From Microcystis aeruginosa NIES-843 (GTDB lineage Bacteria; Cyanobacteriota; Cyanobacteriia; Cyanobacteriales; Microcystaceae), in the NCBI RefSeq assembly GCF_000010625.1, contig NC_010296.1:1710001-1742000 (forward strand): DNA of 32,000 bases. Reading direction: 5' to 3'. A program made the translations under genes and the position numbers. Position 1 is the stretch's first letter; each line of letters begins with the position of its first letter. A model generated the notes under the pieces. It worked only from the letters and a program-made list of their open reading frames with translations. It did no database searches and had not been told where the DNA came from. Of this stretch, positions 6,121 through 29,437 are shown one piece after another.

Positions 6121-6124
6121 AAGT

Positions 6125-13307: not shown

Positions 13308-13312
13308 ATACC

Positions 13313-14962
13313 GTGTTCTCACTCCCCCAAACCAGTCAAAGACAAAAAGAAATCCTTGAGATAGTTCTCGGCAACGGTTGGGACTATATGCGCGGGGTTT
13401 TAACCCTAGGAAAAACGGAAAATCCCCAGATTCCCACCCCAGAAGTTCTCAAAAAAATCCTTGTGGAATTGGGGCCTTTTTATGTCAAATTGGGACAGTT
13501 ACTTAGTACCCGTCCCGATCTGCTACCTGCTAATTATATCGAGGCTTTAACTGCCCTACAAGCACAAGTTCCTCCCGTTGCTTGGACAGATATAGAAATA
13601 GTCATCACCGAACAGTTAGCAAAACCGATCGAAGAGGTATTTAAGTATATTAATCCCCAACCGATTGCCGCAGGATCAATCGGGCAAATTCATCGGGCAA
13701 CTTTATTATCTGGGGAGGAAGTAGCGATTAAAGTCTTGCGTCCTGGAATCGAAAAAATTGTTGCCCAAGATAGTGCCTTAATTAAGGGAATTGCTGATTT
13801 AGTTGCCCTCACAGAATTTGGTCAAAGTTACGACGTTGTTGACTTAGCAGAGGAGTTTATTAAAGCAGTCAATGCGGAATTAGATTTTACCCAAGAAGGT
13901 CATTATACTGACCAATTACGCTATAATTTAACCCAGAGTCGGTGGTCAGAACCCAAACAGTTAGTTATTCCTAAAATTTATTGGCACTTAACTAATTCCA
14001 GGCTATTAGTGTTAGAATGGTTAGAAGGAAAACAAATTTTAGAGGCCGATGTTTCTAGACCAGCAACTGAGCAAGCAATTTCCCAAAGAAAAACCGAAAT
14101 AACTCGGATTTTGTTTCGGTCATTTTTTCAACAAATTTATATTGATGGCTTCTTTCATGCCGATCCCCATCCGGGTAATATTTTCTATCTTGATGATGGT
14201 AGAGTGGCTTTAATTGACTGTGGCATGGTGGGCAGATTAGACCCACAAACTCAACAAATTTTAACAGAATTGTTATTGGCAATTGTTGACTTAGATGCCA
14301 AAAGATGCAGTCAACTAACTATTAAACTATCCGAGTCAGTCGTGCCGATTACTTTAGTACAATTAGAGGTGGATTATGAGCGGATGTTGCGAAAATATTA
14401 TAACCTCAATTTAAATCAAATTAACTTTAGTGAGGTGGTTTATGAACTTTTGCAAATTGCCCGTCGCAATAGAATTAAACTTCCGGGTAATTTAGGTTTA
14501 TTTGCCAAAAGTCTCGCTAATCTAGAAGGAACTGCCCGAAAATTTAATCCTGATATTAATATCCTAGAAGAAGTCAAACCGCTATTAACTAATATTCTTG
14601 AACAACAGTTAATCGGTAGCACTCCCCTACAAACTGCCCTAAGAACAGTTTTAGACTTGAAATCTTTTTCCCTGAAATCTCCCCGTCAAATCGAAGTTTT
14701 ACTAGATGGTTTAACCTCGGAAACTTTAAATGTTAATCTGAAAATTCGCGACTTAGATAATCTCCGTCGCAGTTTAGATAATTCCGCCAATCGACTAGCT
14801 TTTAGTGTGATTATTGGTTCCTTAATTATCGGGGCCGCCATTGTCACAGCCAGCACCCAATCTCGGCAATTAACTATTATTAGTACCGTATTATTTGCTA
14901 CAGCTAGTTTTATCGGTTTATGGTTAGTTGTCGGTATCCTGCGATCAGGAAGATTGCGCTAG
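13313..14962 (+). CDS. ABC1/UbiB-family atypical kinase
   Basis: LGPFYVKLGQLLSTRPDLLP, AAGSIGQIHRA, VAIKVLRPG and FHADPHPGNI motifs, plus C-terminal TM helices. Confidence 0.9.
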   Translation: MFSLPQTSQRQKEILEIVLGNGWDYMRGVLTLGKTENPQIPTPEVLKKILVELGPFYVKLGQLLSTRPDLLPANYIEALTALQAQVPPVAWTDIEIVITEQLAKPIEEVFKYINPQPIAAGSIGQIHRATLLSGEEVAIKVLRPGIEKIVAQDSALIKGIADLVALTEFGQSYDVVDLAEEFIKAVNAELDFTQEGHYTDQLRYNLTQSRWSEPKQLVIPKIYWHLTNSRLLVLEWLEGKQILEADVSRPATEQAISQRKTEITRILFRSFFQQIYIDGFFHADPHPGNIFYLDDGRVALIDCGMVGRLDPQTQQILTELLLAIVDLDAKRCSQLTIKLSESVVPITLVQLEVDYERMLRKYYNLNLNQINFSEVVYELLQIARRNRIKLPGNLGLFAKSLANLEGTARKFNPDINILEEVKPLLTNILEQQLIGSTPLQTALRTVLDLKSFSLKSPRQIEVLLDGLTSETLNVNLKIRDLDNLRRSLDNSANRLAFSVIIGSLIIGAAIVTASTQSRQLTIISTVLFATASFIGLWLVVGILRSGRLR

Positions 14963-14974
14963 AAATTATCGCCA

Positions 14975-15382
14975 TTAAATTAAGATTTGTTGTTGTAAAA
15001 ATTTCGCCCACCGACTGGCTAATTCAACTTCAGTAAAGGGAATTCTTTCAGGCGATCGCTCTTTAAAAATAAATTCTAGGCAAGGGGAACCTTGGGGGGG
15101 AAGAGCATCTAAATCCACCACTTGATTATTAACTAACAGACGGATTTCTTTGACCTCCTCTAGGGAAAAAGTTTGTAAATTTATGACTCCCTTACGAGTT
15201 GGCTTTCCCCAAGTGATAATTTTATCTTTTTGACCTAAGACAGAATATATATCATACTTAGCTCGCTCGAAGTTTTCCGCCCATGATCGATAGATTTCCA
15301 CTTTTTGGTATTCATTCCAACCACTCCAAGCCAACCAAATAAATAGAATTAATAAAGGTGTCCACAATAACCCGCGTTCCAT
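14975..15382 (-). CDS. Hypothetical membrane-anchored protein (135 aa)
   Basis: N-terminal hydrophobic helix LLWTPLLILFIWLAWSGW and host-like composition. No family recognised. Confidence 0.5.
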   Translation of the reverse strand: MERGLLWTPLLILFIWLAWSGWNEYQKVEIYRSWAENFERAKYDIYSVLGQKDKIITWGKPTRKGVINLQTFSLEEVKEIRLLVNNQVVDLDALPPQGSPCLEFIFKERSPERIPFTEVELASRWAKFLQQQILI

Positions 15383-15571
15383 AAACTATCGCCCCAAAAT
15401 TCTGGTCAATTAATCCTATTTTATGCTAAGTGGGTGGGTGGAATTAAATATAAGATGAACGTAGGTTGGGTTGAAGCATGAAACCCAACGCCCGATTATG
15501 TTACGCTACCGCTAACCCATCCTACAAATAATTGTGCCTCCCTACTTAATTGGCAGCAAGGGATTATACTA

Positions 15572-15625
15572 GGGTTTGCGGCAAAAAGTTTTTCCTGGGG
15601 GTTGGGGTGTGGGGAAGGAAACCTC
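15572..15625. repeat. 5' fragment of MITE family A
   Basis: GGGTTTGCGGCAAAAAGTTTTTCCTGGGGGTTGGGGTGTGGGG matches the first ~50 nt of the 17355 copy. Confidence 0.7.
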
Positions 15626-15677
15626 TTTCATCTGCGGTGGTGAAAATTTTTTCATCGGGACTGACTTGCTGATTCGG

Positions 15678-15706
15678 AAAAAAAAGGGCAGACAAAAGCC
15701 TCCCCT
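15678..15706 (-). terminator. Possible intrinsic terminator downstream of glnA
   Basis: The minus strand reads GGGAGGCTTTTGTCTGCCC followed by T8. The stem is imperfect (one mismatch, one G-U). Confidence 0.35.
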
Positions 15707-15732
15707 AGTATTAATGATTGGTCAATCAAACC

Positions 15733-17154
15733 TTAGACATCGTAGTAGAGAGAGAACTCGTAGGGGTGAGGACGTAAGCGCATCGGGTTAACTTCGTTAT
15801 CGAGCTTGTAGGTGATCCAGTTGTGGATAAAGTCTTCGGTAAAGACACCAGAATCGGTCAAGAAAGCGTGATCTTTTTCGAGACTTTCCAGAGCTGCTTC
15901 TAAAGAACCGGGGGTAGAGGGTATTTTTGACAATTCTTCGGGACTGAGTTCGTAGATATCCACATCGAGAGGTTCCCCCGGTTCAATTTGATTTTTAATC
16001 CCATCGATACCGGCACAGAGCATAGCTGCAAAAGCGAGGTAGGGGTTAGAAGTCGCGTCAGGACAGCGGAATTCTAAACGTTTGGCTTTCGGGTTGCTTC
16101 CCGATAAAGGAATCCGAATCGAAGCGGAGCGATTACCTTGGGAGTAAGCCAGGTTTACAGGGGCCTCAAAACCGGGGACGAGACGCTTGTAAGAGTTGGT
16201 GGTGGGGTTAGTTAAAGCTAAGAGTGCGGGAGCGTGTCTAAGCAAACCACCGATGTAGTGCAGTGCCATTTGGCTAAGTCCGGCGTATTTATCCCCAGCG
16301 AACAGGGGTTGACCATCTTTCCAGATAGACTGGTGAACGTGCATCCCGGAACCATTATCACCAAAGATGGGTTTAGGCATAAAGGTGACGGTTTTACCGT
16401 ATTTCTTGGCCACGTTCTTGATGCAGTATTTATAGGTCATCAAGTAGTCGGCAGCCCGTACTAGGGTAGAGAATTTAATCCCTAACTCGTTTTGACCACC
16501 AGTAGCGACTTCATGGTGATGTTTTTCGATGGGAACTCCGCAGTCGGCCATGGTTAAGAGCATTTCCGTGCGAATGTCTTGAGAGGTATCGGTGGGACTA
16601 ACGGGAAAATAACCCTGTTTGTAGGCGGGTTTATAGGCAAGATTTCCGTCTTTTTCGTCTTTACCGCTATTCCAACGACCTTCGACACTATCCATGTAGT
16701 AATAGCCCGAGTTGGCGGTTTGGTCGAAACGAGCGCTATCAAAGAGGAAAAATTCCGCTTCCGGTCCAAAATATACGGTATCACCTAAACCGGTAGTGCT
16801 AAGATAATCGATCGCTTTCTGAGCAATAGAGCGAGGATCGCGGCTATACCATTCACCGGTTCTCGGTTCTTTGATGCTACAGATCATGCTTAGGGTAGGT
16901 TCCTTGTAGAAGGGATCGATCCAAGCAGTGGTGGGATCGGGAACCATGGCCATATCGGATTCGTTAATTGCTTTCCAACCGCGAATACTGGAACCATCGA
17001 AGGCAACACCATCGCTGAAAGAGCTTTCATCGATTTGATCGTAGTAGAACGAGCAATGTTGCCAGATACCTGGCATATCAATAAATTTCAGGTCGATAAT
17101 CTTAATATTGTTGTCCTGAATCATTTTCAAGACTTCTTGTGGCGTTTCGGGCAT
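15733..17154 (-). CDS. glnA: Glutamine synthetase type I
   Basis: 473 aa with the [18 protein letters not shown] and [10 protein letters not shown] motifs of GSI. Confidence 0.97.
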
Positions 17155-17231
17155 GGAAAACTCCTTTGATGTATGGATCAGTTCTTAAGCTTCTCAAAAA
17201 ATCCATCCTAAACAGTCACTTTGGCCGGTTT

Positions 17232-17247
17232 TGTATTTTTCGATACA
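17232..17247 (-). promoter_or_regulatory. NtcA binding site TGTA-N8-TACA with a downstream -10 box (glnA promoter)
   Basis: TGTATTTTTCGATACA is a perfect palindromic NtcA consensus. On the glnA strand, TAGGAT (TAN3T) at 17205-17210 lies exactly 22 nt from the GTA-N8-TAC core. The site is ~80-90 nt upstream of the glnA ATG. Confidence 0.8.
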
Positions 17248-17354
17248 AAATCTTTAATCCTAGCTTGAAAAAATCTGTAATTTCCTTGTTCAGGTCGGTA
17301 ATCGCTGGGAATGACCATTTGCCTATCAGCTTCTACTGCCCCTTGCCCTACTTA

Positions 17355-17568
17355 GGGTTTGCGGCAAAAAGTTTTTCGTGGGGGTAGGGTGTGGGGTGTG
17401 GGGTGTGGGGTGTGGGGTTTTACCGATTTTCAGGTGGTCAATTAGCTAATTTTCAGGGAAAAAGTCCAGGAATTTTCCCCCCAATCACTCCAATGGTCGG
17501 CACTTTTTGAGGGGAAAAAAGTCTAAAAACCTTGTTGGATAAGGTTTTTAGATTTATTCAGCAAACCC
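17355..17568. mobile_element. MITE family A, full-length copy (~214 bp) carrying a (GGGGTGT)n tract
   Basis: Termini GGGTTTGCGGCAAAAAG ... TTATTCAGCAAACCC are imperfectly inverted (about 7-9 complementary terminal nt). The internal sequence is shared with 12583..12750. Confidence 0.8.
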
Positions 17569-17574
17569 TACTTA

Positions 17575-17801
17575 GGGTCTGCGGCAAAAAGTTTGTTGGT
17601 GGGGTTAGGAGTCAGTAGCCGGTCGTCAGTAGCCGGTCGTTTCAGGCTTTGTTGCCCTTCTTTTTTGTACCAGTTTATCTACTAAGAGAAGGATAATGCA
17701 AGTTTTTTGAATGTCCTAATCCTATATTCTGGCACTAACATCGGATTTTAACAGGTCAAAAGCCTTATTTTAAAAGGGTTTTACCATTATTCAGCCAGCC
17801 C
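17575..17801. mobile_element. MITE family B, second copy
   Basis: Shares GTTTGTTGGTGGGGTTAGGAGTCAGTAGCCGGTCGTCAGTAGCCGGTCGT ... CATCGGATTTTAACAGGTCAAAAGCCTTATTTTAAAAGGGTTTTACCATTATTCAGC with 3475..3710. An additional solo TIR fragment (GGGTTTGCTGAATAAATC) lies at 17808-17825. Confidence 0.85.
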
Positions 17802-17989
17802 TAATTAGGGTTTGCTGAATAAATCTTGTTCGAGCTGCCCGGTCATCACCGTCCGGCCCTGGCCGTGAGGATGTCAAACACTTAACCAGACATTTTGTCC
17901 TTAAATTCTGAAATATAACGTCTGCTTAACCCGGAACGATCAAAGCGTTAGATTAGAAAGAGTCCTTTTTTGAGAGATATTTAAACCTG

Positions 17990-18811
17990 ATGGTCTGGCC
18001 TTTTAAACCGAAAACCCACAAACAAATCGCTCGAATAGAAATTACAGGTGCAATTGCCTCCGATACCCGCAAAAGAGTCTTAAAAGCCCTAGAAATCGTC
18101 AAAGAAAGGCAATATCCCGCCCTACTTCTCCGCATTGACTCCCCCGGGGGAACCGTGGGGGATTCCCAAGAAATTTATGAAGCATTGAAGCGGTTACAAA
18201 AAAACACGAAAATAATCGCTAGTTTTGGCAATATTTCCGCCTCTGGCGGCGTTTATATCGGTATGGGAGCTAATTATATTATGGCTAACCCCGGCACGAT
18301 TACTGGCTCGATCGGTGTTATCCTCAGAGGGAACAATCTGGAAAGATTGTTGGATAAGGTGGGAGTTTCGTTTAAAGTGATTAAATCTGGCCCCTATAAA
18401 GATATTCTCTCCTTCGATCGAGAATTAACTGATGAAGAAGAAAGAATTCTCCAGGATATGATCGATACCAGTTATCAGCAATTTCTGCAAACCGTCGCCG
18501 GAGCGAGAAATTTAGATGTCAATCAGGTGAAAAGTTTTGCCGATGGGCGCATTTTTACCGGCCAACAGGCGTTAGAATTAGGAGTGGTTGATCGCTTGGG
18601 AACCGAGGAAGATGCCCGACTTTGGGCGCTAGAATTGGCAGGATTACCCCCAGATAAAACTAAATGTCAGACTATCGAAGAACCGAAACCCCTCCTCAGT
18701 CGTCTGACGGGCAATCGTTCCCCAATACCCCCAGGATTACAAAAAACCCTACAGCGCCTAGAATTTGAATTGGAAGTTAACGGACAACTATTGTGGTTAT
18801 ACCGACCCTGA
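17990..18811 (+). CDS. sppA: Signal peptide peptidase SppA, 36K type
   Basis: LLRIDSPGGTV and SASGGVYI (catalytic Ser region), plus GSIGV and the SGPYKD Lys region. Confidence 0.9.
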   Translation: MVWPFKPKTHKQIARIEITGAIASDTRKRVLKALEIVKERQYPALLLRIDSPGGTVGDSQEIYEALKRLQKNTKIIASFGNISASGGVYIGMGANYIMANPGTITGSIGVILRGNNLERLLDKVGVSFKVIKSGPYKDILSFDRELTDEEERILQDMIDTSYQQFLQTVAGARNLDVNQVKSFADGRIFTGQQALELGVVDRLGTEEDARLWALELAGLPPDKTKCQTIEEPKPLLSRLTGNRSPIPPGLQKTLQRLEFELEVNGQLLWLYRP

Positions 18812-18879
18812 TGGCCAGATTAAAGTCGAGAAAAAGGGCGCGTTAACCCCTAAAATTGACTCATCAGGATTAGCGGAGG

Positions 18880-19281
18880 ATGACAATCGTGCAGTGGAAG
18901 GTTCGAGCCATTCGGGGAGCAACGACAGTAACGGCTAATACTATTGAAGCTATACGAGAAGCAGTAACAGAACTCCTCGAAGCGATCGAAATCCACAATA
19001 GTCTCGATCCCGATGATATTGTTAGTATTATCTTTACGGCAACTCAGGATTTAGACGCGATTTTCCCCGCCGCTATCGCTCGCGAACGTCCCCATTGGCA
19101 AAATGTCCCCCTCCTCGATGTGCAACAGATGCACGTCGTTGGTAGTCTGGACAAGTGTATTCGCGTAATTCTCCACGTTAATACTCCCAAACTACAAGGG
19201 GAAATGCAGCACGTCTATCTGCAAGGGGCGAAAAATCTTCGCCCCGATTGGCAGATTTCTCCAGTAACTATTAATCGCTAA
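18880..19281 (+). CDS. aroH: Chorismate mutase, AroH class
   Basis: VRAIRGATTV N-terminal signature and a ~130-aa size typical of AroH monofunctional chorismate mutase. Confidence 0.8.
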   Translation: MTIVQWKVRAIRGATTVTANTIEAIREAVTELLEAIEIHNSLDPDDIVSIIFTATQDLDAIFPAAIARERPHWQNVPLLDVQQMHVVGSLDKCIRVILHVNTPKLQGEMQHVYLQGAKNLRPDWQISPVTINR

Positions 19282-19297
19282 AATCTTCGATAACTGA

Positions 19298-20191
19298 CTA
19301 AATCCCCATTTCCGACAGCCAACTCAAAATTAATTGATTAACTTTTTCGGGATGTTCATCGTGGGGACAGTGACCGGCTTTGGCAATCGGATAAAATTGG
19401 GTATTATTTCCCATTTTAGCTCTTTCTTGGTAAATTACCGAACCGGCGATCGGTGTCCAAGGGTCATCCTCTCCCCAGAGTACCAATAAAGGGCGATCGA
19501 TTTGCGGTAATAATTCCTGGGTCGATGGTCCGGGGGGTGCTGTCAACACCGATGCAAACACTCCCCACGCACCCGCATCACAGGAGGGTTGATAGAGAAT
19601 TTCGACTAATTCCTCGGTAATCGCGGTATGATCCCGATAAACCTGTTTTAAGGTCTTCCGGATGCGATTTTTCTGCCTTACCTGTTCAAAAATAAACTTT
19701 CCTGTCACGGGAGAACTAACTAAACCGGTAAAGGCAGCCATGATTAAACGCAGCGGCAAATTTAATTCTTCGGGACGATGGTTTAATCCTCCGGCACAGT
19801 TAATAATTACTCCTCCGGCAGTGATTTCGGGAGATTCTGCCATCAGCATTAAGGTAATCAGTCCCCCGATGGAATTACCGACAAATACCGCCGGTCTTGC
19901 CATTTTTTCTCGCCAAAAGTCCTGTATTTGCCGCTGCCAAAGGTTGAGACTATAATCTAAAGCGGGCTTATCTGTACCCCCAAATCCCAAAAGATCTAGG
20001 GCATAGACTTGATAGCCATTTTCCGCTAAAACGGGGATATTTTTGCGCCAATGACCGATAGATGCCCCAAAACCGTGAATTAATACTAGGGGTTGTCCTT
20101 CTCCCCGCACAGTGTAGGGGATGGTGTGACCTTGCCATGTCCAAGACAATTGCTCTAAGCTAGTCCCAGTGATCGGAGATTGTAGTGCCAT
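19298..20191 (-). CDS. Alpha/beta-fold hydrolase
   Basis: LVLIHGFGAS oxyanion region, GNSIGG nucleophile elbow and a C-terminal GHCPHDE His motif. Confidence 0.85.
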   Translation of the reverse strand: MALQSPITGTSLEQLSWTWQGHTIPYTVRGEGQPLVLIHGFGASIGHWRKNIPVLAENGYQVYALDLLGFGGTDKPALDYSLNLWQRQIQDFWREKMARPAVFVGNSIGGLITLMLMAESPEITAGGVIINCAGGLNHRPEELNLPLRLIMAAFTGLVSSPVTGKFIFEQVRQKNRIRKTLKQVYRDHTAITEELVEILYQPSCDAGAWGVFASVLTAPPGPSTQELLPQIDRPLLVLWGEDDPWTPIAGSVIYQERAKMGNNTQFYPIAKAGHCPHDEHPEKVNQLILSWLSEMGI

Positions 20192-21092: not shown

Positions 21093-21455
21093 TTAGCGGA
21101 GAGAACGAATCTGCAATTGGTAATAATCCTCGTCTAAACCTTGATTCTGCTTGTTATTAACCGAATTAAGCTGTTTTTGTAGTGCCAAAATGCGATCACT
21201 TGTAGCCGGATGGGTGCTGAGAATTGTCGGGGTAGAACCCCCCTGTTGTGGTAATTTTCCCATCAAGGAGATCATCGCCTTGGCTGCATAACCAGCCTCA
21301 GCTAGATTGTTTAAACCCAGTCGGTCCGCTTCTAATTCATCCTTGCGACTATTGGGCAGATTATAGGCGAGATTGACTGCCAATTGTACCCAAGTTTTTG
21401 TGTCTAATCCCGCCGCGCTGAGAAGTCCTTGGGCGAGGGCAGTATTGCTTGACAT
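21093..21455 (-). pseudogene. C-terminal fragment of an M48-family metallopeptidase
   Basis: SRKDELEADRLG and STHPATSDRI are the post-HExxH motifs of M48 peptidases. The HExxH segment is absent. The frame is open for only 5 codons upstream of the listed ATG, and the tnpB stop is 10 nt away. Confidence 0.7.
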
Positions 21456-22905
21456 ACTCCCACCGTCAAGCTACGCTGTGACGGGGGATTCTTTCCACAT
21501 CGCTGTTAGAAATTCCTTGTTCAACGAGACAACTTAGATTCTCAATGTCTCCACTGAAAATCCAGAGGCCGGACTCTCCCAAGGCGTTTGGGTCGGTTTC
21601 TGTTTGCCCAACAGTACCGTTGAGATGATTTCCCAAATATTGTAACCCTTTTTTAAGAATATTTATTGCTGCATTATGATCCCTATCTAAGACTGTTTGA
21701 CAATTGGGGCATTGATGAGTTCTAGTACTTAATGTTTTTTGAACTCTCGTCCCACAAACTGAACAATCTTGAGAAGTGAAATGGGGAGGAACAGCAACAC
21801 AAACAATCCGATAAATCTTGGCAAAATAATTCAACCATTCAGTGAATTGATACCAAGAAGCATCACTAATCGACTTGGCAAGTTTACGGTTTTTGACTAA
21901 GTTTCTTACCTTTAAAGCTTCATAAACTACCAGATCATTAGACTGGACTAACGCCAAAGCGTCTTTAATTGCTTTGTCTTTACGTTGTCTTGATACTTTA
22001 AGATGAAGCCTAGCTACTTTTATCCGTTGCTTGTGATAGTTGTTAGACTGTTTCTTTCCTTTGCGAAATTGTTTTGATAATCTCCTTTGTGCTTTTTGAA
22101 ATCGTTTTTCTGACTTGCTTAAATAACGTGGATTCTCTACAGTATTGCCTTGAGCGTCAGTATAAAACTCTTTTAAACCTAAGTCAATTCCTGTTATTTG
22201 TCCCGTTGGTTTATGGTATTCTTGCCGTTCTACGTCAATCAAAAACTGACAATAATAACCGTCAGCACGTCTAACAACTCTTACCCGTTTAATCTGTTGT
22301 TCTGAATAATAAACTAAGGTTTTTTGACTACACCATAAATCAAATTCTCCTGCTTTAAAACCATCGGTAAACTTGATTTTACGTCGATTATCAGATAGTT
22401 GGTAGCCCGTTAGTTTATACTCAACCGAACGGCTATGCTTTTTGAAACGAGGAAAACCCTTTTTCCCAAGTATCTTAGCATGACAATTCTGGTAAAACCG
22501 ATTAATTGATTGCCAGGCTCTATCAGCAGCCGATTGACGAGCTTGAGAGTTTAATTTATTAACATAAGGTGTCTCTTTATTGTTAGCTAGTACCGCACAA
22601 AGTTTTTGGAGATCATTGCGGGTTGTCCCTTGATTGTCCATCCAATAACGAACACAAGAGTTACGCACAAACTGAGAAGTTTTGATAGCTTCATCAAGCT
22701 GGTGATATTGCTCTGGGGTTCCGTTTTTTAGCTTCGCTTCTACGACTAGCATCTAACAATCCTTGACCTTTGGCTAAGTTAATTATAACACAGTTTACCT
22801 ACAAATGGTAGAATTAAAATCGGGCTTCTCAGTTAATATCTTGGTCGGATTTCATCCCCCGCAAAGGTTGATGTCTTGTCGAAAAATTTAGCGGGGGCAT
22901 TCATC
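21456..22905 (-). mobile_element. IS200/IS605-family tnpB-only (IS1341-like) element; boundaries approximate
   Basis: Contains tnpB and no tnpA. An imperfect subterminal hairpin TCGGAT..CCCCCGC / GCGGGGG..ATCCGA lies at ~22845-22910 on the tnpB-upstream side. The element is flanked by two fragments of one M48 gene. Confidence 0.7.
21466..22752 (-). CDS. tnpB: TnpB (IS605 OrfB) RNA-guided endonuclease, apparently intact
   Basis: RuvC triad candidates GIDLGLK, VVYEAL and DRDHNAAINI. Zinc finger CSVCGTRV...CPNCQ. 428 aa. Confidence 0.9.
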   Translation of the reverse strand: MLVVEAKLKNGTPEQYHQLDEAIKTSQFVRNSCVRYWMDNQGTTRNDLQKLCAVLANNKETPYVNKLNSQARQSAADRAWQSINRFYQNCHAKILGKKGFPRFKKHSRSVEYKLTGYQLSDNRRKIKFTDGFKAGEFDLWCSQKTLVYYSEQQIKRVRVVRRADGYYCQFLIDVERQEYHKPTGQITGIDLGLKEFYTDAQGNTVENPRYLSKSEKRFQKAQRRLSKQFRKGKKQSNNYHKQRIKVARLHLKVSRQRKDKAIKDALALVQSNDLVVYEALKVRNLVKNRKLAKSISDASWYQFTEWLNYFAKIYRIVCVAVPPHFTSQDCSVCGTRVQKTLSTRTHQCPNCQTVLDRDHNAAINILKKGLQYLGNHLNGTVGQTETDPNALGESGLWIFSGDIENLSCLVEQGISNSDVERIPRHSVA

Positions 22906-23379: not shown

Positions 23380-23576
23380 GGGTGCTGATCTCCAGAGAAT
23401 TAGGGGGCGATCGAACGGGAATAGGAATCTATACTCGCTCCCCTCTAGGATATACGTTCATCTCGGCTAGGGGCGGTTTTTTAAAAAATCTTAAAATATC
23501 ATTAAGATTCTTGGTTAAGAACGATTAAGTGGTAAACAAAAGTCAACCCGATAATTGCTGGGGCAGCCTTTTTCAG

Positions 23577-23647
23577 TGTGGGGTGTGGGGTGTGGGGTGT
23601 AGGGCGTAGGGTGTCGGGTGTAGGGTGTAGGGTGTAGGGTGTAGGGA
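23577..23647 (+). repeat. G-rich heptamer array (GGGGTGT / GTAGGGT variants), about 10 units
   Basis: Read directly: gtggggtgtggggtgtggggtgtagggcgtagggtgtcgggtgtagggtgtagggtgtagggtgtaggg. Confidence 0.9.
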
Positions 23648-23664
23648 GAATAAATAGAAATAAT

Positions 23665-23730
23665 CTCCTGACTCGGAGTCTCCTATCTCCTGACTCGGAG
23701 TCTCCTATCTCCTGACTCGGAGTCTCCTAT
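23665..23730 (+). repeat. Three perfect tandem copies of the 22-mer CTCCTGACTCGGAGTCTCCTAT, followed by CTGATAA-type heptamers to ~23776
   Basis: Read directly. Each unit contains the small palindrome GACTC-G-GAGTC. The next unit starts CTCCTGA and then switches into TAACTGATAACTGATAA. Confidence 0.9.
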
Positions 23731-23900
23731 CTCCTGATAACTGATAACTGATAACCGGTAACTGATCACTGATAACTGGAACTACCTGAAGCATTGATCC
23801 CCGTGGTGTGGTACTGTCAATTCAGTGTATTTATCGGCACTGGCTTAAGATTTGTCGCTATTGTCCTCCCCTTCTCTCGTCGCTGTTTTTGAGGCTTTCT

Positions 23901-24932: not shown

Positions 24933-25598
24933 CTATCTCTTGGGAAAATTACTGCCGGGATAAATTACTTTTTTATCGACTTTAATCCAATGGAGACTCT
25001 CTAAACGACTTCTAAGATTAGTAATAGTTACTCCCAACTCGTCGGCGATCGCATACAGAGGTCCCCATTTCGTCAAGTCACGTCCCTTGATGGCTTTCTC
25101 TAACTCACTCATCGGCATTAGTAAACAACTGGCAAAATATTGGGCTTGCCATTCAATTCTTTGGCTAGAATCAACTGTCCGACACAGAAAAGGTTGAATT
25201 GTCTCTAGGGAATCTCCCTGATTGATTCGATCCAAAAAGTTAGAGACAGCTGTTTGATTAATATGGAGTACAAAATGACCAATTTCATGGGCTAAACTCG
25301 AATTTTTAAAACCTTCTTTTGCTAGGGATGAATTTTGGGAATCTTTTAAGAATTTTACATCTTCATTAAGAATAATTTTCTTTTCTGTGGGAATAATCAT
25401 TGCGGCGATTTCTCCCTCTTTATCTGGCTTTATATCCGTCCATTCAATAGCCAAATCAAAATAATCGGCCGCTGCTTCCGCAATATCGCAATTTTTTAAG
25501 GGACGACGACGATGAGCTTTTACTTTCTTAAGAATATTGTCTGCCTGAGCTTCAATCACTGTTTTGGGAATAAAACTATAGGGTTTAATAATATCCAA
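24933..25598 (-). CDS. ImmA/IrrE-family (M78, DUF955) zinc metalloprotease
   Basis: HEIGHFVLH (HExxH) and the downstream EWQAQYFASCLLMP motif typical of ImmA/IrrE. The start is 5 nt after the XRE stop. Confidence 0.85.
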   Translation of the reverse strand: MDIIKPYSFIPKTVIEAQADNILKKVKAHRRRPLKNCDIAEAAADYFDLAIEWTDIKPDKEGEIAAMIIPTEKKIILNEDVKFLKDSQNSSLAKEGFKNSSLAHEIGHFVLHINQTAVSNFLDRINQGDSLETIQPFLCRTVDSSQRIEWQAQYFASCLLMPMSELEKAIKGRDLTKWGPLYAIADELGVTITNLRSRLESLHWIKVDKKVIYPGSNFPKR

Positions 25599-25603
25599 GA
25601 TAT

Positions 25604-25960
25604 TTACTCCTGCTCATCTAATTTTGTCGCCTCAGAAATAATTTTTTTGGCAAAATTGGGATTGTCTTTCATGCGACGCAATAAAATCGGCATTTGTTGG
25701 TATTTTTGAACTAATTCTTTGAAGACTTTTTGATCATCTGAACTCAGTCGTCCCGCCAATTCCCCTAAGGTTTGAGCATTTAATTTTAAATGAGTCGCTA
25801 AGGACTCAATAACTTGCTGACTAGGAGGATAACCCGCATGATCATTTTCTAGCTTCGATAGATAGGTATAGTCCACCCCAATCAACTTAGCTAGTTCTCT
25901 CTGACTATATTCTTCCTCTCGACGAGCTTTGCGGATAACCTGTCCAAATGTTTCTGACAC
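25604..25960 (-). CDS. XRE-family helix-turn-helix transcriptional repressor
   Basis: IRKARREEEYSQRELAKLIGVDYTYLSKLEN is a canonical HTH_3 domain. GTG start at 25958-25960. First gene of the XRE-ImmA pair. Confidence 0.85.
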   Translation of the reverse strand: MSETFGQVIRKARREEEYSQRELAKLIGVDYTYLSKLENDHAGYPPSQQVIESLATHLKLNAQTLGELAGRLSSDDQKVFKELVQKYQQMPILLRRMKDNPNFAKKIISEATKLDEQE

Positions 25961-25987
25961 TGCTTTTCTCTCAATCGCTCAAAAAAA

Positions 25988-26017
25988 ATTATATCAAGGG
26001 TTGACTATTTCAGTCAA
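25988..26017 (-). promoter_or_regulatory. Near-consensus sigma70-type promoter for the XRE gene (TTGACT-18 nt-TATAAT)
   Basis: The minus strand reads TTGACTgaaatagtcaacccttgaTATAAT. The -35 lies inside operator O1. The -10 lies ~28 nt upstream of the GTG start. Confidence 0.65.
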
Positions 26018-26018
26018 C
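26000..26018. promoter_or_regulatory. Operator O1: perfect palindrome GTTGACT-N5-AGTCAAC
   Basis: gttgactatttcagtcaac read directly. It supplies TTGACT -35 hexamers on both strands; the plus-strand candidate is TTGACT-18-TAGAGT (-10 at 26025-26030). Confidence 0.7.
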
Positions 26019-26042
26019 ATACGCTAGAGTTAGTTCATTGGC

Positions 26043-26061
26043 GTTGATTATTTTAGTCAAC
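26043..26061. promoter_or_regulatory. Operator O2: GTTGATT-N5-AGTCAAC (one mismatch to O1)
   Basis: gttgattattttagtcaac, centred 43 bp from O1, between the candidate plus-strand -10 and the Cas4-like start codon. Confidence 0.65.
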
Positions 26062-26117
26062 ACAATAGCAAACACTGCCGTATCATCCTAGCATTTTCCT
26101 GACTGAGGGGAAAAATC

Positions 26118-26948
26118 GTGTCCTGCCAGTTTCCCAAAAAGCCTTGGTATCCTCCGATGAGCTATAGTCTTTGGCGATCGCTTAAACCAGCGATTGGCTA
26201 TGAGAATTGGCATTGTCAGACAAAACGGGGGTTTGAAAAAGCGCGAAACAAAGAACCAGAAGTTCAAAGATTACTATCGCAAGATAATCAACCGCAAAAA
26301 ATTGGTAAGTTGGCACAACGAGGAGTTTTTGAGTTTCATCAAGAGCCAGGGAGATTATCGAGTCCTGATGGGGTGGAACAAGTCGCAGAAATCCTGCAAT
26401 TAAATCAAGAATCGCCAGAAATTCAAGCCAGGGTTTTAGTAATTTTAAACAATTACTATCAACAACCAATTTTATTGAATAAACAGATTATTGATTTACC
26501 TAGAGGTGATGAAGGTTATCCAGAACCTATTGTTATCGAGCAAGGTAACTATCGGTTTAATTTGTCCGCTGCCTTTGATTGTATTTTTAGAGAAGCTGAT
26601 GACACTATACATATTTTAGATTTGAAAACTGGTCAATCTAATTTTGATCGTCGTCAGGCTCATGTTTATTTACTGGCGGCTAGTTACCGTTATCCTCAGG
26701 AAAAAATTGTCGCTTCTTTTTACAATTTAGAAACCCAAACAAGCTCAGAAAATATCTCCCTGTCTTCCGAGGCAATAGAAGCAGTTAAAATCGAACTAGC
26801 TTTCCTGTCCAAAAAACATCAACAACAACTAAAAAAATATAAAAATCACCCCGAAGATTTTTATCATATTTTCCCGCCCCAAAGTGGCTATGCCTGTCGT
26901 TATTGTCCTTTTACATCGATTTGTGATTCTGCAAATAAGGAAGTTTAG
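26118..26948 (+). CDS. Cas4-like PD-(D/E)xK nuclease with a predicted 4Fe-4S cluster
   Basis: AAFDCIF (motif II Asp), ILDLKTG (D-x-K), RRQAHVYLL (QxxxY), and C-terminal CRYCPFTSIC = CX2CX5C, plus an N-terminal Cys (NWHCQ). Alternative ATG start at 26157. The stop lies 3 nt before the pAgo ATG. Confidence 0.8.
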   Translation: MSCQFPKKPWYPPMSYSLWRSLKPAIGYENWHCQTKRGFEKARNKEPEVQRLLSQDNQPQKIGKLAQRGVFEFHQEPGRLSSPDGVEQVAEILQLNQESPEIQARVLVILNNYYQQPILLNKQIIDLPRGDEGYPEPIVIEQGNYRFNLSAAFDCIFREADDTIHILDLKTGQSNFDRRQAHVYLLAASYRYPQEKIVASFYNLETQTSSENISLSSEAIEAVKIELAFLSKKHQQQLKKYKNHPEDFYHIFPPQSGYACRYCPFTSICDSANKEV

Positions 26949-26951
26949 ATC

Positions 26952-29195
26952 ATGAATTACACAGCAGCTAACACAGCCAACTCTCCAATATTTTTGAGTG
27001 AAATTAGTTCCTTAACTCTCAAGAATAGTTGTTTAAATTGTTTTCAGCTTAATCATCAAGTTACTAGGAAAATAGGTAATCGTTTTAGTTGGCAATTCAG
27101 TCGGAAGTTTCCCGATGTGGTGGTTATTTTTGAAGATAATTGTTTTTGGGTATTAGCTAAAGATGAAAAATCTATTCCTTCTCTACAACAGTGGAAAGAA
27201 GCTTTATCAGATATTCAAGAGGTTTTACGAGAAGATATTGGCGATCACTATTATTCTATTCATTGGCTAAAAGACTTTCAGATAACAGCTTTAGTTACAG
27301 CACAATTAGCAGTTAGAATTCTAAAAATATTTGGTAAATTTTCCGATCCAATAGTTTTTCCCAAAGATAGTCAGATAAGTGAAAACCAAGTACAGGTAAG
27401 GAGAGAAGTTAACTTTTGGGCAGAAATCATCAATGACACCGATCCGGCTATTTGTTTAACTGTTGACAGTAGTATTGTCTATAGTGGAGATTTAGAACAA
27501 TTTTATGAAAATCACCCCTATAGACAAGATGCTGTTAAATTATTAGTAGGTTTAAAGGTTAAAGATAGAGAAACCAATGGGACAGCTAAAATTATTAGAA
27601 TAGCGGGTAGAATTGGGGAAAGAAGAGAGGATTTATTAACAAAAGCCACAGGTTCAATTAGTCGAAGAAAATTAGAAGAAGCTCATCTGGGGCAACCAGT
27701 GGTAGCGGTACAATTTGGCAAAAATCCTCAGGAGTATATTTATCCATTAGCAGCTTTAAAACCCTGGGTGACAGATGAGGATGAGAGTTTATTTCAAGTC
27801 AATTACGGAAACTTATTAAAAGCAACAAAAATCTTTTATGCTGAACGACAAGAACTATTAAAGTTATATAAACAGGAGGCACAAAAGGCTTTAAATAACT
27901 TTGGGTTTCAGTTAAGAGAAAAAAGTATTAACAGCCAAGAATACCCCGAATTATTTTGGACTCCTTCTATTTCTATTGAGCAAACTCCTATCTTATTTGG
28001 TCAAGGAGAAAGGGGAGAAAAAAGAGAAATTATCAAAGGATTATCGAAGGGGGGTGTATATAAACGTCATCGAGAATATGTCGATCCTGCTCGTAAGATT
28101 CGTTTAGCTATTCTGAAACCAGCTAATTTGAAAGTGGGAGATTTTAGAGAACAATTAGAAAAGCGATTAAAACTTTATAAATTTGAGACTATTTTGCCAC
28201 CAGAGAATCAAATAAATTTCTCTGTTGAAGGTTTAGGATTTGAAAAAAGAGCTAGACTGGAAGAAGCAGTTGATCGATTAATTGGAGTAGAAATTCCTGT
28301 AGATATTGCTTTAGTCTTTCTTCCTCAAGAGGATCGCAATGCTGATAATACTGAAGAAGGGAGTTTATATTCGTGGATTAAAAGAAAGTTTCTGGGTCGT
28401 GGAGTTATAACTCAAATGATTTATGAGAAGACTTTAAATGATAAGAGCAACTATAAGAATATTCTCAATCAAGTTGTCCCAGGGATCCTGGCCAAATTAG
28501 GAAATTTACCCTATGTCCTTGCTGAACCTCTAGAAATTGCCGATTATTTTATTGGTTTAGATGTGGGAAGGATGCCTAAAAAAAATCTTCCGGGGAGTCT
28601 CAATGTTTGTGCAAGTGTGCGACTATATGGAAAACAGGGAGAATTTGTTCGCTGTCGGGTAGAAGATAGTTTAACCGAGGGAGAAGAAATTCCTCAACGG
28701 ATTCTGGAAAATTGTTTACCGCAAGCTGAACTAAAAAATCAGACAGTTCTCATTTACAGAGATGGTAAATTTCAAGGAAAGGAGGTTGAAAATTTACTGG
28801 CAAGAGCTAGAGCAATTAATGCTAAATTTATTCTCGTAGAATGTTATAAGACTGGCATTCCTAGACTTTATAATCTTCAGCAAAAACAGATAAATGCTCC
28901 CTCCAAAGGATTAGCTTTAGCTTTATCAAATCGGGAAGTTATCCTGATAACGTCCCAAGTTTCTGAACAAATTGGTGTTCCTCGTCCCTTGCGCTTAAAA
29001 GTTCATGAATTAGGAGAACAAAGAAACTTAAAACAGTTAGTTGACACTACGTTAAAATTAACTTTACTTCACTATGGTTCTCTCAAAGACCCCCGTTTAC
29101 CTATCCCTTTGTATGGAGCGGACATTATTGCTTATCGACGCTTACAAGGAATTTATCCTAGTTTATTAGAAGATGATTGTCAATTCTGGCTTTAG
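26952..29195 (+). CDS. Long prokaryotic Argonaute (pAgo), predicted catalytically active
   Basis: PIWI motifs: YFIGLDVGR (D537), TEGEEI (E576/578/579), LIYRDGKF (D604), LPIPLYGADIIAYRR (D724). MID 5'-end pocket candidates: YSWIKRK, TQMI, GILAKLG (Y-K-Q-K type). 747 aa, consistent with an N-PAZ-MID-PIWI architecture. Confidence 0.85.
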   Translation: MNYTAANTANSPIFLSEISSLTLKNSCLNCFQLNHQVTRKIGNRFSWQFSRKFPDVVVIFEDNCFWVLAKDEKSIPSLQQWKEALSDIQEVLREDIGDHYYSIHWLKDFQITALVTAQLAVRILKIFGKFSDPIVFPKDSQISENQVQVRREVNFWAEIINDTDPAICLTVDSSIVYSGDLEQFYENHPYRQDAVKLLVGLKVKDRETNGTAKIIRIAGRIGERREDLLTKATGSISRRKLEEAHLGQPVVAVQFGKNPQEYIYPLAALKPWVTDEDESLFQVNYGNLLKATKIFYAERQELLKLYKQEAQKALNNFGFQLREKSINSQEYPELFWTPSISIEQTPILFGQGERGEKREIIKGLSKGGVYKRHREYVDPARKIRLAILKPANLKVGDFREQLEKRLKLYKFETILPPENQINFSVEGLGFEKRARLEEAVDRLIGVEIPVDIALVFLPQEDRNADNTEEGSLYSWIKRKFLGRGVITQMIYEKTLNDKSNYKNILNQVVPGILAKLGNLPYVLAEPLEIADYFIGLDVGRMPKKNLPGSLNVCASVRLYGKQGEFVRCRVEDSLTEGEEIPQRILENCLPQAELKNQTVLIYRDGKFQGKEVENLLARARAINAKFILVECYKTGIPRLYNLQQKQINAPSKGLALALSNREVILITSQVSEQIGVPRPLRLKVHELGEQRNLKQLVDTTLKLTLLHYGSLKDPRLPIPLYGADIIAYRRLQGIYPSLLEDDCQFWL

Positions 29196-29206
29196 AGAGA
29201 AAAATT

Positions 29207-29437
29207 ATGTATAATTCCCCTAGCAATCTACACCATCTAGAAAAATTAGTCAGTGATTTAGTTACCCAAATTAGTTTACTGACGGCAGAAAATCGAGCCA
29301 TTAAAGAAAGATTAGCTTATCTTGAATGGGACTTGCACCGAGAAAATGGTTGTTTACAAGCCGAAAATTTATCTCTACGTCAAATGGTTGACTACTGCTC
29401 CGAAGAATATAATTCTCTTGAGGATTCTCTAAGATAA
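29207..29437 (+). CDS. Small coiled-coil protein (76 aa from ATG 29207; 86 aa if from 29177, overlapping the pAgo 3' end)
   Basis: Heptad-like Leu/Ile pattern LVSDLVTQISLLTAENRAIKERLAYLEWDL...LSLRQMV. Same strand as pAgo and directly after it, with AGAGAGAAAAA upstream of 29207. No family recognised. Confidence 0.45.
   Translation: MYNSPSNLHHLEKLVSDLVTQISLLTAENRAIKERLAYLEWDLHRENGCLQAENLSLRQMVDYCSEEYNSLEDSLR

What the first reader, a model, noticed from the sequence alone, without database searches (positions are those of the whole stretch)
26118..26948. Cas4-like Fe-S nuclease encoded outside any CRISPR context and translationally coupled to the pAgo
The 276-aa protein carries the complete RecB/Cas4 signature in the correct order:
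- Asp in AAFDCIF
- D-x-K in ILDLKTG
- QxxxY in RRQAHVYLL
- a C-terminal CX2CX5C (CRYCPFTSIC) plus an N-terminal Cys, the arrangement that ligates a 4Fe-4S cluster in Cas4 and AddB

I saw no CRISPR array or cas1/cas2 anywhere in the window. Its stop codon lies 3 nt from the pAgo ATG.

Cas4 trims prespacer ends during CRISPR adaptation. By analogy, this protein may generate or size 5'-phosphorylated DNA guides, or degrade pAgo-nicked targets. That functional link is an inference.
Basis: partly seen in the sequence, partly recalled or inferred. Interest (0 to 1): 0.65.

Follow-up and report, generated by a model that had tools for sequence, protein, structure and literature searches.

The report
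Known Argonaute partner nuclease ACE1

Summary
It is not a new find. The protein is 93% identical to MaACE1 of Microcystis aeruginosa PCC 7806, whose crystal structure is PDB 9IAC. It matches the PADLOC model 'Aga_Cas4-like_Nuc' at E = 1.6e-131. The gene 3 nt downstream is a long-A pAgo with an intact DEDD tetrad. This pair is the APACE1 system described by Bobadilla Ugarte et al., Mol Cell 2025. In that work ACE1 carries an Fe4S4 cluster on four cysteines, cuts ssDNA endonucleolytically 5' of G, forms a heterodimer with pAgo, trims pAgo-bound guides to about 14-21 nt and boosts plasmid interference. The protein belongs to the Cas4 family only in the broad sense, because it fails the curated CRISPR-Cas4 model. 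The less ordinary result lies next door. A divergent XRE-HTH plus M78 peptidase pair resembles CapH/CapP but lacks the GAF domain. Twin palindromic operators sit in the intergenic region. The pair accompanies ACE1-pAgo in 57 of 80 cyanobacterial loci. I found no mention of it in the APACE1 or CapH/CapP papers I searched.

The parts
26118..26948 (+). [quoted passage not shown] Catalytic D154, D168-x-K170 and Q180-xxx-Y184. Fe4S4 ligands C33, C260, C263 and C269.
   Evidence: ORF. PADLOC Aga_Cas4-like_Nuc E = 1.6e-131. 93% identical to PDB 9IAC MaACE1. AF2 model TM 0.90 to 9IAC. Motif residues invariant in 34 homologues.
26952..29195 (+). Long-A pAgo, 747 aa, orthologue of MaAgo and CtAgo. DEDD tetrad D537, E578, D604, D724.
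   Evidence: PADLOC pAgo_II E = 0. Pfam Piwi. PDB 9IAD CtAgo E = 5e-261, with the tetrad mapped by alignment. A pAgo lies directly downstream of ACE1 in 79 of 80 loci.
26937..26951 (+). ACE1-pAgo junction. SD-like AAGGAAG (26937-26943) lies inside the ACE1 3' end, followed by stop TAG (26946-26948) and a 3-nt gap before the pAgo ATG.
   Evidence: Read from the sequence. The family-wide junction is a 4-nt ATGA overlap in 59 of 77 loci and a 3-nt gap in Microcystis.
26105..26110 (+). SD-like GAGGGG, 7 nt upstream of the ACE1 GTG start.
   Evidence: Read from the sequence. The GTG start is supported by conservation of W10 upstream of the alternative M14.
26000..26019 (.). Candidate operator 1, palindrome GTTGACTATTTCAGTCAACA. 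It overlaps the -35-like TTGACT boxes of both predicted divergent promoters.
   Evidence: The pattern occurs twice in the window, both times here, against 0.01 expected. TTGA-N9-TCAA is present in 47 of 59 orthologous intergenic regions, about 26-fold enriched.
26043..26062 (.). Candidate operator 2, palindrome GTTGATTATTTTAGTCAACA, 43 bp from operator 1. It overlaps the -35-like box of a predicted + strand promoter (-10-like TATCAT at 26081-26086).
25604..25960 (-). XRE-family HTH protein, 118 aa, CapH/ImmR-like. Candidate repressor, transcribed divergently from ACE1-pAgo.
   Evidence: Pfam HTH_3 5.6e-11. PADLOC capH 5.8e-9. Present with the M78 gene upstream of ACE1 in 57 of 80 loci. Fused to M78 in some Nostoc loci.
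24933..25598 (-). M78 (ImmA/IrrE family) Zn-metallopeptidase, 221 aa, CapP-like but without a GAF domain. HEIGH at 104-108, conserved C139, E149.
   Evidence: Pfam Peptidase_M78 2.2e-9. PADLOC capP 1e-19. The only PDB sequence hit is CapP 7T5T. The AF2 model's best fold hits are CapP 7T5T and IrrE 3DTI. Orthologues are 206-270 aa. Reverse context test 4 of 4.

Best explanation
The ORF encodes ACE1, the Cas4-family accessory nuclease of a cyanobacterial APACE1 (long-A pAgo + ACE1) immune system, here in a Microcystis chromosome.

**Shown for the 93%-identical orthologue MaACE1**
- Four cysteines hold an Fe4S4 'iron staple'. In the window protein these are C33, C260, C263 and C269.
- D154, D168 and K170 bind Mg2+ in a channel too narrow for duplex DNA.
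- The enzyme is a ssDNA endonuclease that cuts just 5' of G.
- It trims pAgo-bound DNA guides to the 14-21 nt the pAgo uses best.
- It raises pAgo-mediated plasmid interference.

**Inferred for this window**
- The same activities apply, by orthology and by conservation of every catalytic and cluster residue.
- The two genes are co-transcribed and probably translationally coupled, which would favour 1:1 assembly.

**Further inference, not published**
- The divergent HTH repressor binds the twin palindromes over the shared promoter region.
- It is inactivated by the adjacent M78 peptidase, making the operon inducible.
For: **Identity**
- PDB 9IAC E = 3.2e-175, with 256 of 275 residues identical.
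- Foldseek on the AF2 model (pLDDT 86.8) ranks 9IAC (TM 0.90) and 9IAB first. Cas4 SSO0001, AdnA, Dna2 and AddAB follow.
- PADLOC Aga_Cas4-like_Nuc E = 1.6e-131 and pAgo_II E = 0.

**Residues**
- All motif residues are invariant.
- They share numbering with the published MaACE1 D154A/D168A mutant.

**Partner**
- The pAgo DEDD tetrad is intact.
- A pAgo lies immediately downstream in 79 of 80 loci.
- The junction is a 4-nt overlap or a 3-nt gap in most loci.

**Host**
- The closest relatives are all Microcystis and GC content is 41%.

**Function**
- PMC12094033 covers phylogeny, structure, ssDNA endonuclease activity, heterodimer formation, trimming and interference.

**Regulator inference**
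-.
Against: - Nothing here contradicts the identity.
- The in vivo role is less settled than the biochemistry.
  - In E. coli, guides still form without ACE1.
  - The shift in 5'-G guides is small, from 35.4% to 39.4%.
  - The catalytic double mutant still enhanced plasmid loss.
  - ACE1 did not add to protection against phage Bas01.
- No experiment has been done in a cyanobacterial host.
- Translational coupling and co-transcription are inferred only from spacing.
- No activity, cluster or complex was measured for this particular allele, which differs from MaACE1 at 19 positions.
Confidence: 0.88

Rival explanations
1. ACE1 helps pAgo mainly as a structural or allosteric partner through the complex itself. 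Its nuclease activity would then be secondary to immunity.
For: - In PMC12094033 the catalytic double mutant MaACE1(D154A, D168A) still enhanced the pAgo-dependent drop in plasmid content.
- The authors attribute that effect to complex formation.
- pAgo also changes ACE1 activity within the complex.
Against: - The catalytic and cluster residues are invariant across 34 homologues down to 52% identity. That argues for selection on catalysis.
- ACE1 measurably trims guides in vitro and shortens them in vivo.
- The two readings are not mutually exclusive.
Confidence: 0.25
2. ACE1 acts after target recognition. It would degrade the ssDNA or unwound ends exposed once pAgo nicks the invader.
For: - ACE1 cuts ssDNA and splayed-arm DNA.
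- In the complex it gains the ability to cut circular ssDNA.
- Its closest folds, AdnA and AddB, resect unwound ends.
- The paper lists this as an open question.
Against: - No direct evidence exists.
- ACE1 has no helicase domain and does not cut dsDNA.
- ACE1 gave no extra protection against phage Bas01.
Confidence: 0.2
3. It is an independent solo-Cas4-type nuclease for defence or DNA repair, and sits next to pAgo only by chance.
For: - MaACE1 alone reduced plasmid content 1.6-fold.
- 19 of 58 RefSeq ACE1 genes lie in genomes without a pAgo.
- A solo Cas4-like gene affects plasmid maintenance in Synechococcus elongatus (PMC10653904).
Against: - A pAgo lies immediately downstream in 79 of 80 loci.
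- The overlap is 4 nt in 59 of 77 loci.
- A physical heterodimer has been shown for the orthologue.
Confidence: 0.05
4. It is a genuine CRISPR adaptation Cas4 serving, in trans, a CRISPR-Cas system elsewhere in the genome.
For: - It shares the fold and four-cysteine arrangement with Cas4. Foldseek finds 4IC1 at 3e-5 and 8D3L at 1e-3.
- In one relative, Scytonema hofmannii, the module lies beside cas6 and cas3 genes.
Against: - TIGR00372 cas4 scores 16.4 bits against a cut-off of 65.
- There is no Pfam Cas_Cas4 hit.
- The window has no cas1, cas2 or array.
- ACE1 forms its own clade, separate from CRISPR-Cas4.
Confidence: 0.02

Closest known systems
MaACE1 / APACE1 system of Microcystis aeruginosa PCC 7806 (PDB 9IAC; Bobadilla Ugarte et al., Mol Cell 2025, PMC12094033)
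   Same: - 93% identical over the full length, with the same residue numbering for D154 and D168.
- The same four cysteines.
- The same gene order, ACE1 then long-A pAgo, and the same genus.
- Conserved chromosomal neighbours across Microcystis strains: LysR, M78, HTH, ACE1, pAgo and a glycogen-debranching-type gene.
   Different: - 19 substitutions, none at a motif residue.
- The paper describes a two-gene operon and does not mention the divergent HTH and M78 genes.
CtACE1 of Chroococcidiopsis thermalis (PDB 9IAB)
   Same: - 52% identical in the structural alignment, E = 1.6e-90.
- Same fold, TM 0.87.
- Same D-DxK motif and the same cysteines.
   Different: More distant orthologue from another order. 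Its numbering is shifted by 6.
CRISPR-associated Cas4 (e.g. SSO0001, PDB 4IC1; type I-C Cas4, PDB 8D3L)
   Same: - RecB-type PD-(D/E)xK core.
- One N-terminal plus three C-terminal cysteines.
- Processes ssDNA ends that feed a guide-based immune system.
   Different: - Only 12-16% identity.
- Fails the curated cas4 HMM.
- Partners pAgo rather than Cas1-Cas2.
- It is an endonuclease with a 5'-G preference, not a PAM-dependent prespacer trimmer.
[quoted passage not shown]
   Same: - Fe4S4-stapled RecB nuclease with its active site in a narrow ssDNA channel.
- The authors report these as the closest folds.
- Recovered here at E about 2e-4 to 8e-4.
   Different: ACE1 is a free-standing 276-aa protein with no helicase module. 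It relies on pAgo rather than on a motor subunit.
CapH/CapP (CBASS-associated HTH repressor plus ssDNA-activated M78 peptidase; PDB 7T5T), IrrE/DdrO and ImmA/ImmR. This comparison concerns the neighbouring regulator pair.
   Same: - Adjacent HTH and M78 genes upstream of an immune operon and on the opposite strand from it.
- Fused variants exist.
- The best structural match of the M78 protein is CapP, followed by IrrE/PprI.
- There is a conserved cysteine between HExxH and the third zinc ligand.
   Different: - There is no C-terminal GAF domain. In CapP and IrrE that domain forms half of the ssDNA-binding groove.
- The activating signal therefore cannot be assumed.
- The associated system is a pAgo, which the CapH/CapP papers read here do not list.

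Membership tests
ACE1 (APACE1 system) | Close sequence and structural relationship to the characterised ACE1 proteins | tested here: met
   9IAC E = 3.2e-175 at 93% identity. 9IAB E = 1.6e-90. Foldseek TM 0.90 and 0.87. PADLOC Aga_Cas4-like_Nuc E = 1.6e-131.
ACE1 (APACE1 system) | Conserved D-DxK catalytic motif | tested here: met
   D154, D168 and K170 are present and invariant. They are the same residues as in the MaACE1 double mutant.
ACE1 (APACE1 system) | One N-terminal and three C-terminal cysteines that ligate the Fe4S4 cluster | tested here: met
   C33, C260, C263 and C269 are invariant in 34 homologues. The cluster itself cannot be tested in silico.
ACE1 (APACE1 system) | About 278 aa, without the 28-41 aa insertion that marks ACE2 | tested here: met
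   276 aa. It aligns without gaps to 9IAC and 9IAB.
ACE1 (APACE1 system) | Encoded in the same orientation next to a catalytically intact long-A pAgo in a cyanobacterium | tested here: met
   The pAgo starts 3 nt downstream. Its DEDD tetrad is D537, E578, D604, D724. The closest relatives are Microcystis.
ACE1 (APACE1 system) | ssDNA endonuclease with 5'-G preference, heterodimer with pAgo, guide trimming | not testable with these tools
   Shown for MaACE1 and CtACE1 in PMC12094033. Inferred here by orthology.
CRISPR-associated Cas4 (TIGR00372 / cas4 sensu stricto) | Scores above the curated family cut-off | tested here: not met
   TIGR00372 scores 16.4 bits against a cut-off of 65. PADLOC Cas4 models reach only E = 0.0016-0.038.
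CRISPR-associated Cas4 (TIGR00372 / cas4 sensu stricto) | Located in a cas operon or next to a CRISPR array | tested here: not met
   The 32-kb window has no array, cas1 or cas2.
Cas4 family in the broad sense (RecB-type PD-(D/E)xK nuclease with a 4-Cys cluster) | RecB motifs (D, DxK, QxxxY) plus a C...CX2CX5C arrangement, and a Cas4/AddB/AdnA-like fold | tested here: met
   Motifs confirmed. Pfam PDDEXK_1 4.5e-11. Foldseek hits to 4IC1, 6PPR, 7SJR, 4CEI, 5EAX and 8D3L.
AddB / AdnA helicase-nuclease subunits | Nuclease domain fused to, or partnered with, a UvrD-like helicase module | tested here: not met
   The protein is 276 aa and consists of the nuclease domain alone. No helicase gene is adjacent.
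CapP/CapH regulator pair (neighbouring genes 24933..25960) | M78 Zn-peptidase (HExxH plus a distal Glu) encoded beside an XRE HTH protein, upstream of and opposite to an immune operon | tested here: met
   HEIGH at 104-108 and E149 are conserved. capP 1e-19 and capH 5.8e-9. The divergent arrangement holds in 57 of 80 loci and in 4 of 4 reverse look-ups.
CapP/CapH regulator pair (neighbouring genes 24933..25960) | C-terminal GAF domain forming the ssDNA-binding groove | tested here: not met
   Orthologues are 206-270 aa, against 291 aa for the CapP chain 7T5T. The PADLOC match covers only profile positions 4-150 of 242. The AF2 model ends in helices and a short hairpin.
CapP/CapH regulator pair (neighbouring genes 24933..25960) | Cysteine-switch loop between HExxH and the third zinc ligand | tested here: inconclusive
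   C139, in the motif PFLCR, is invariant in A2 and lies 10 residues before E149. It does not align with the CapP cysteine in the pairwise alignment.
CapP/CapH regulator pair (neighbouring genes 24933..25960) | Repressor binds the operon promoter and is cleaved by the peptidase on a DNA-damage or ssDNA signal | not testable with these tools
   Only the candidate operators were found.

The most novel reading that the evidence does not exclude
APACE1 may be a four-gene, inducible cassette rather than a constitutive two-gene operon. Under this reading:
- An XRE repressor sits on twin TTGAYT-N5-ARTCAA palindromes that overlap the divergent promoters.
- A GAF-less CapP/IrrE-like M78 peptidase cleaves the repressor in response to an infection or DNA-damage cue, possibly ssDNA.
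- That would switch on ACE1 and pAgo.

ACE1 itself makes short ssDNA, so the module could in principle feed back on its own expression. This would be a first case of CapH/CapP-type control of an Argonaute system. It would also be a CapP-like sensor that works without the GAF domain.
Probability: 0.4. Interest if true: 0.45.

Novelty: already known. Interest (0 to 1): 0.15.

Why it matters
The flagged gene adds one more Microcystis allele of a system whose structure, biochemistry and heterologous phenotype were published in 2025. It changes nothing in the field.

The regulator pair is the part with residual value.
- It might matter for how APACE1 is studied. All published in vivo work used pBAD-driven genes in E. 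coli, and the authors themselves flag the lack of native-host data.
- If the system is normally repressed and induced by damage or infection, its native timing would need to be examined under inducing conditions. So would its guide sources and the contribution of ACE1.

Tried and rejected
- **CRISPR context.** Tandem and direct-repeat scans found only heptamer (ACTGATA-type) and 22-nt microsatellites. Pfam on the ORFs tested (every ORF of at least 100 aa in 1..20000 and the main ORFs beyond) found no cas genes.
- **Bona fide Cas4 membership.** Rejected on the NCBIfam cut-off.
- **RNA features.** Rfam at gathering thresholds and a tRNA scan of the whole window found nothing.
- **Overlapping ORFs inside ACE1.** These are 26182..26469 (-) and 26194..26403 (+). 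I dismissed them because the ACE1 frame is conserved from end to end.
- **The 86-aa ORF at 29177..29437 as a third operon member.**
  - It overlaps the pAgo 3' end.
  - It has only sub-threshold coiled-coil hits, such as ZapB at 25 bits against a cut-off of 31.5.
  - It is detectable in only 4 of 9 Microcystis loci and in no other genus.
  - I therefore do not treat it as part of the system.
- **Literature on the regulator link.** No paper in the searchable library holds CapH, CapP and Argonaute together. The APACE1 paper does not contain HTH, peptidase, XRE or CapH. Ryazansky 2018 does not mention HTH, M78 or ImmA. The library is incomplete, so this is not proof that the link is unpublished.
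- **Terminators.** No intrinsic terminator was predicted between or directly after the two genes. The scan is too crude to carry weight.
Full report
**1.

- The + strand ORF 26118..26948 starts with GTG, is preceded by GAGGGG 7 nt upstream, and encodes 276 aa.
  - AAFDCIF, with the Asp at D154;
  - ILDLKTG, with D168 and K170;
  - RRQAHVYLL, with Q180 and Y184;
  - CRYCPFTSIC, with C260, C263 and C269.
- The relevant N-terminal cysteine is C33.
- In an alignment of 34 homologues of 52-95% identity, all nine residues are invariant.
- The stop TAG (26946-26948) is followed by ATC and then the ATG of a 747-aa ORF (26952..29195).

The window has no CRISPR array. Repeat scans return only heptamer and 22-nt microsatellites. 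Pfam scans of the ORFs tested (all of at least 100 aa in 1..20000 and the main ORFs beyond) find housekeeping genes, two Eco57I/MmeI-type methyltransferase genes, a TnpB and a LysR regulator. They find no cas1 or cas2.

**2. What it is**

- Pfam gives only the generic PDDEXK_1 (E = 4.5e-11).
- The curated cas4 model fails, at 16.4 bits against a cut-off of 65.
- The PADLOC defence library has a dedicated model, 'Aga_Cas4-like_Nuc'. It matches end to end at E = 1.6e-131.
- The downstream gene matches 'pAgo_II' at E = 0.
- A search of PDB sequences returns 9IAC at E = 3.2e-175 and 9IAB at E = 1.6e-90. Identity to the 9IAC chain is 256 of 275 residues, or 93%.
- Foldseek names 9IAC and 9IAB as the Argonaute-associated Cas4 family protein 1 (ACE1) of Microcystis aeruginosa and of Chroococcidiopsis thermalis.
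- An AlphaFold2 model of the window protein has a mean pLDDT of 86.8. It superposes on 9IAC at TM 0.90 and on 9IAB at TM 0.87.
- The next hits are Cas4 SSO0001, AdnA, a DinG helicase entry (9KQH), Dna2, AddAB and type I-C Cas4, at E = 1e-5 to 1e-3.
- The nearest database relatives are all Microcystis.
- Window GC content is 41%.
- The order LysR, M78, HTH, ACE1, pAgo, debranching-enzyme gene recurs in other Microcystis assemblies. The window is therefore a Microcystis chromosomal segment.

**3. The partner**

- The 747-aa protein matches CtAgo (9IAD) at E = 5e-261.
- Aligned to CtAgo's published tetrad D533, E574, D600, D721, it has D537, E578, D604 and D724. It is therefore predicted to be catalytically competent.
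- Among 80 cyanobacterial loci recovered with an ACE1 profile, a pAgo lies directly downstream in 79.
- The ACE1 stop and pAgo start overlap by 4 nt (ATGA) in 59 of 77 loci. The 3-nt gap seen here is the Microcystis variant.
- An SD-like AAGGAAG lies 8 nt before the pAgo ATG.
- Co-transcription and translational coupling are therefore well-supported inferences. They have not been demonstrated.

**4. How it works (from the literature)**

Bobadilla Ugarte et al., Mol Cell 2025 (PMC12094033), characterised this system from M. aeruginosa PCC 7806 and C. thermalis.
- ACE1 forms a cyanobacteria-only clade of the Cas4 family, distinct from CRISPR-Cas4 and from ACE2.
- The crystal structures show a PD-(D/E)xK core, Mg2+ on the D-DxK residues, and an Fe4S4 cluster on the four cysteines.
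- The closest folds are the AdnA and AddB nuclease domains.
- The active site lies in a 10-13 A channel that excludes duplex DNA.
- ACE1 is a metal-dependent ssDNA endonuclease. About 90% of its products start with G, and the D154A/D168A mutant of MaACE1 is dead.
- MaACE1 and MaAgo form a heterodimer of about 115 kDa through the MID-PIWI lobe.
- ACE1 trims pAgo-bound guides to about 14-21 nt. It shortens the in vivo guides from a mean of 21 nt to 18 nt.
- Co-expression lowers transformation efficiency 6-8-fold, against 2-3-fold for pAgo alone.
- Open points stated by the authors:
  - the catalytic mutant still enhances plasmid loss;
  - ACE1 adds nothing against phage Bas01;
  - a role in degrading targets is untested;
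  - nothing has been done in a cyanobacterial host.

**5. Verdict on the finding**

- The Cas4-pAgo association has been noted since 2009 (PMC2743648) and 2018 (PMC6299218).
- The finding is already known.
- Two precision points apply. It is a Cas4-family protein but not a CRISPR Cas4. It is an endonuclease rather than an exonucleolytic trimmer.

**6. What else is there: a regulator pair**

Immediately upstream, on the opposite strand, lie two genes:
- a 118-aa XRE-type HTH protein (25604..25960);
- a 221-aa M78 peptidase (24933..25598).

Family matches:
- They match the PADLOC models capH (5.8e-9) and capP (1e-19).
- They match Pfam HTH_3 and Peptidase_M78.
- The M78 protein's only PDB sequence hit is CapP 7T5T.
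- Its AlphaFold2 model has a pLDDT of 89.9. It best matches CapP, then IrrE and PprI bound to ssDNA.

Conservation of the arrangement:
- Both genes lie divergently upstream of ACE1-pAgo in 57 of the 80 loci, across many genera with unrelated outer flanks.
- The loci without them are mostly those whose pAgo is most distant from the window's.
- I also ran the test in reverse with four M78 homologues chosen from an independent M78 search. They came from Crocosphaera, Rivularia PCC 7116, Scytonema hofmannii and Planktothrix.
- All four sit in the same arrangement, with Piwi and PDDEXK_1 on one strand and HTH and M78 on the other.
- In some Nostoc-type loci the HTH and M78 parts are fused into one 365-aa protein.

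Candidate operators:
- The 157-nt intergenic region carries two near-identical palindromes, 43 bp apart: GTTGACTATTTCAGTCAACA (26000-26019) and GTTGATTATTTTAGTCAACA (26043-26062).
- They overlap the -35-like boxes of the predicted divergent promoters.
- The pattern TTGAYT-N5-ARTCAA occurs only at these two places in the 32 kb, against 0.01 expected.
- TTGA-N9-TCAA occurs in 47 of 59 orthologous intergenic regions, at 2.85 per kb against 0.11 per kb across the loci.

Comparison with CapH/CapP:
- The layout matches the published rule for CapH/CapP-like regulators: upstream of the controlled operon, on the opposite strand, and sometimes fused.
- The cyanobacterial peptidases are only 206-270 aa and lack the GAF domain. 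In CapP and IrrE that domain forms the ssDNA groove.
- They keep HEIGH, E149 and an invariant cysteine, C139.
- The activating signal cannot therefore be transferred from CapP.

Literature check:
- The APACE1 paper does not mention these genes.
- No paper in the library combines CapH, CapP and Argonaute.
- The CapH/CapP papers I read list CBASS, DISARM, DUF2188/DUF3892 and ubiquitin-like operons, but not pAgo.

I rate regulation of ACE1-pAgo by this pair as likely. A damage or ssDNA trigger is only possible.

**7. Scores**

- The flagged feature is already known, and its interest is low (0.15).
- The most novel reading not excluded is an inducible four-gene APACE1 cassette controlled by a GAF-less CapP-like peptidase. 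I give it probability about 0.4 and interest about 0.45 if true.

Noticed in passing
window 24933..25960 (-) and 25961..26117: A divergent XRE-HTH plus M78 peptidase pair lies beside ACE1-pAgo. It is CapH/CapP-like but lacks a GAF domain. Twin palindromic candidate operators sit at 26000-26019 and 26043-26062. The pair is conserved beside ACE1-pAgo in 57 of 80 cyanobacterial loci and in 4 of 4 reverse look-ups. It is not mentioned in the APACE1 paper.
   Followed up: yes
L033 6307..7404 (-), with similar loci L035, L043, L046, L051, L052, L055, L056, L066 and L075: In Nostoc-type APACE1 loci the HTH and M78 parts are fused into one protein of about 365 aa. In L033 a second stand-alone M78 gene follows it (5595..6284). 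This gene fusion supports a functional link between the two parts.
   Followed up: partly
L030 7333..7959 (+); L028 7703..7951 (+); L033 7715..7951 (+); L082 5268..5492: Many non-Microcystis loci have 440-780 nt between the regulator and ACE1. That space holds an extra same-strand ORF. It is 208 aa in one Microcoleus locus. In Nostoc it is a conserved 78-82-aa ORF ending ...VYTAIYEILTK, and in Rivularia a 74-aa ORF. These could be further APACE1 operon members. They are absent from the window.
   Followed up: no
L084 1..1348 (Scytonema hofmannii PCC 7110): In this genome the ACE1-pAgo-HTH-M78 cassette lies about 1 kb from cas6 and cas3 genes. 'Outside any CRISPR context' is therefore true for this window but not for every member of the family.
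   Followed up: no
window 29177..29437 (+): An 86-aa ORF overlaps the last 19 nt of the pAgo gene. It has only sub-threshold coiled-coil (ZapB-like) hits. It is detectable in only 4 of 9 Microcystis loci and in no other genus, so it is probably not part of the system.
   Followed up: partly
window 26118 vs 26157: There is a start-codon discrepancy. Several database entries for Microcystis ACE1 are 263 aa and start at M14. Conserved W10 upstream of M14, and the crystallised construct, support the 276-aa GTG start.
   Followed up: yes
window 21093..22752 (-): An IS200/IS605-type TnpB (428 aa; OrfB_IS605 plus the Cas12f1-like TNB domain) lies directly next to a 120-aa ORF. That ORF matches only the C-terminal third of an M48 peptidase profile. 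It may be a gene truncated by the insertion.
   Followed up: no
window 3700..4989 (-) and 5410..9427 (-): There are two N6-adenine methyltransferase genes of the Eco57I/MmeI type. One is 1100 aa, a size typical of type IIG restriction-modification enzymes. This is a second likely defence locus about 17 kb from the pAgo, separated from it by housekeeping genes (petC, petA, glnA).
   Followed up: no
window 13181..13308, 23576..23783, 2192..2611, 12595..12880: Intergenic regions hold dense heptamer microsatellites, such as (ACTGATA)18 and (GTGTAGG)10, and a perfect 22-nt repeat of 3.4 copies (23663-23737). They are not CRISPR-like. Their function is unknown.
   Followed up: no
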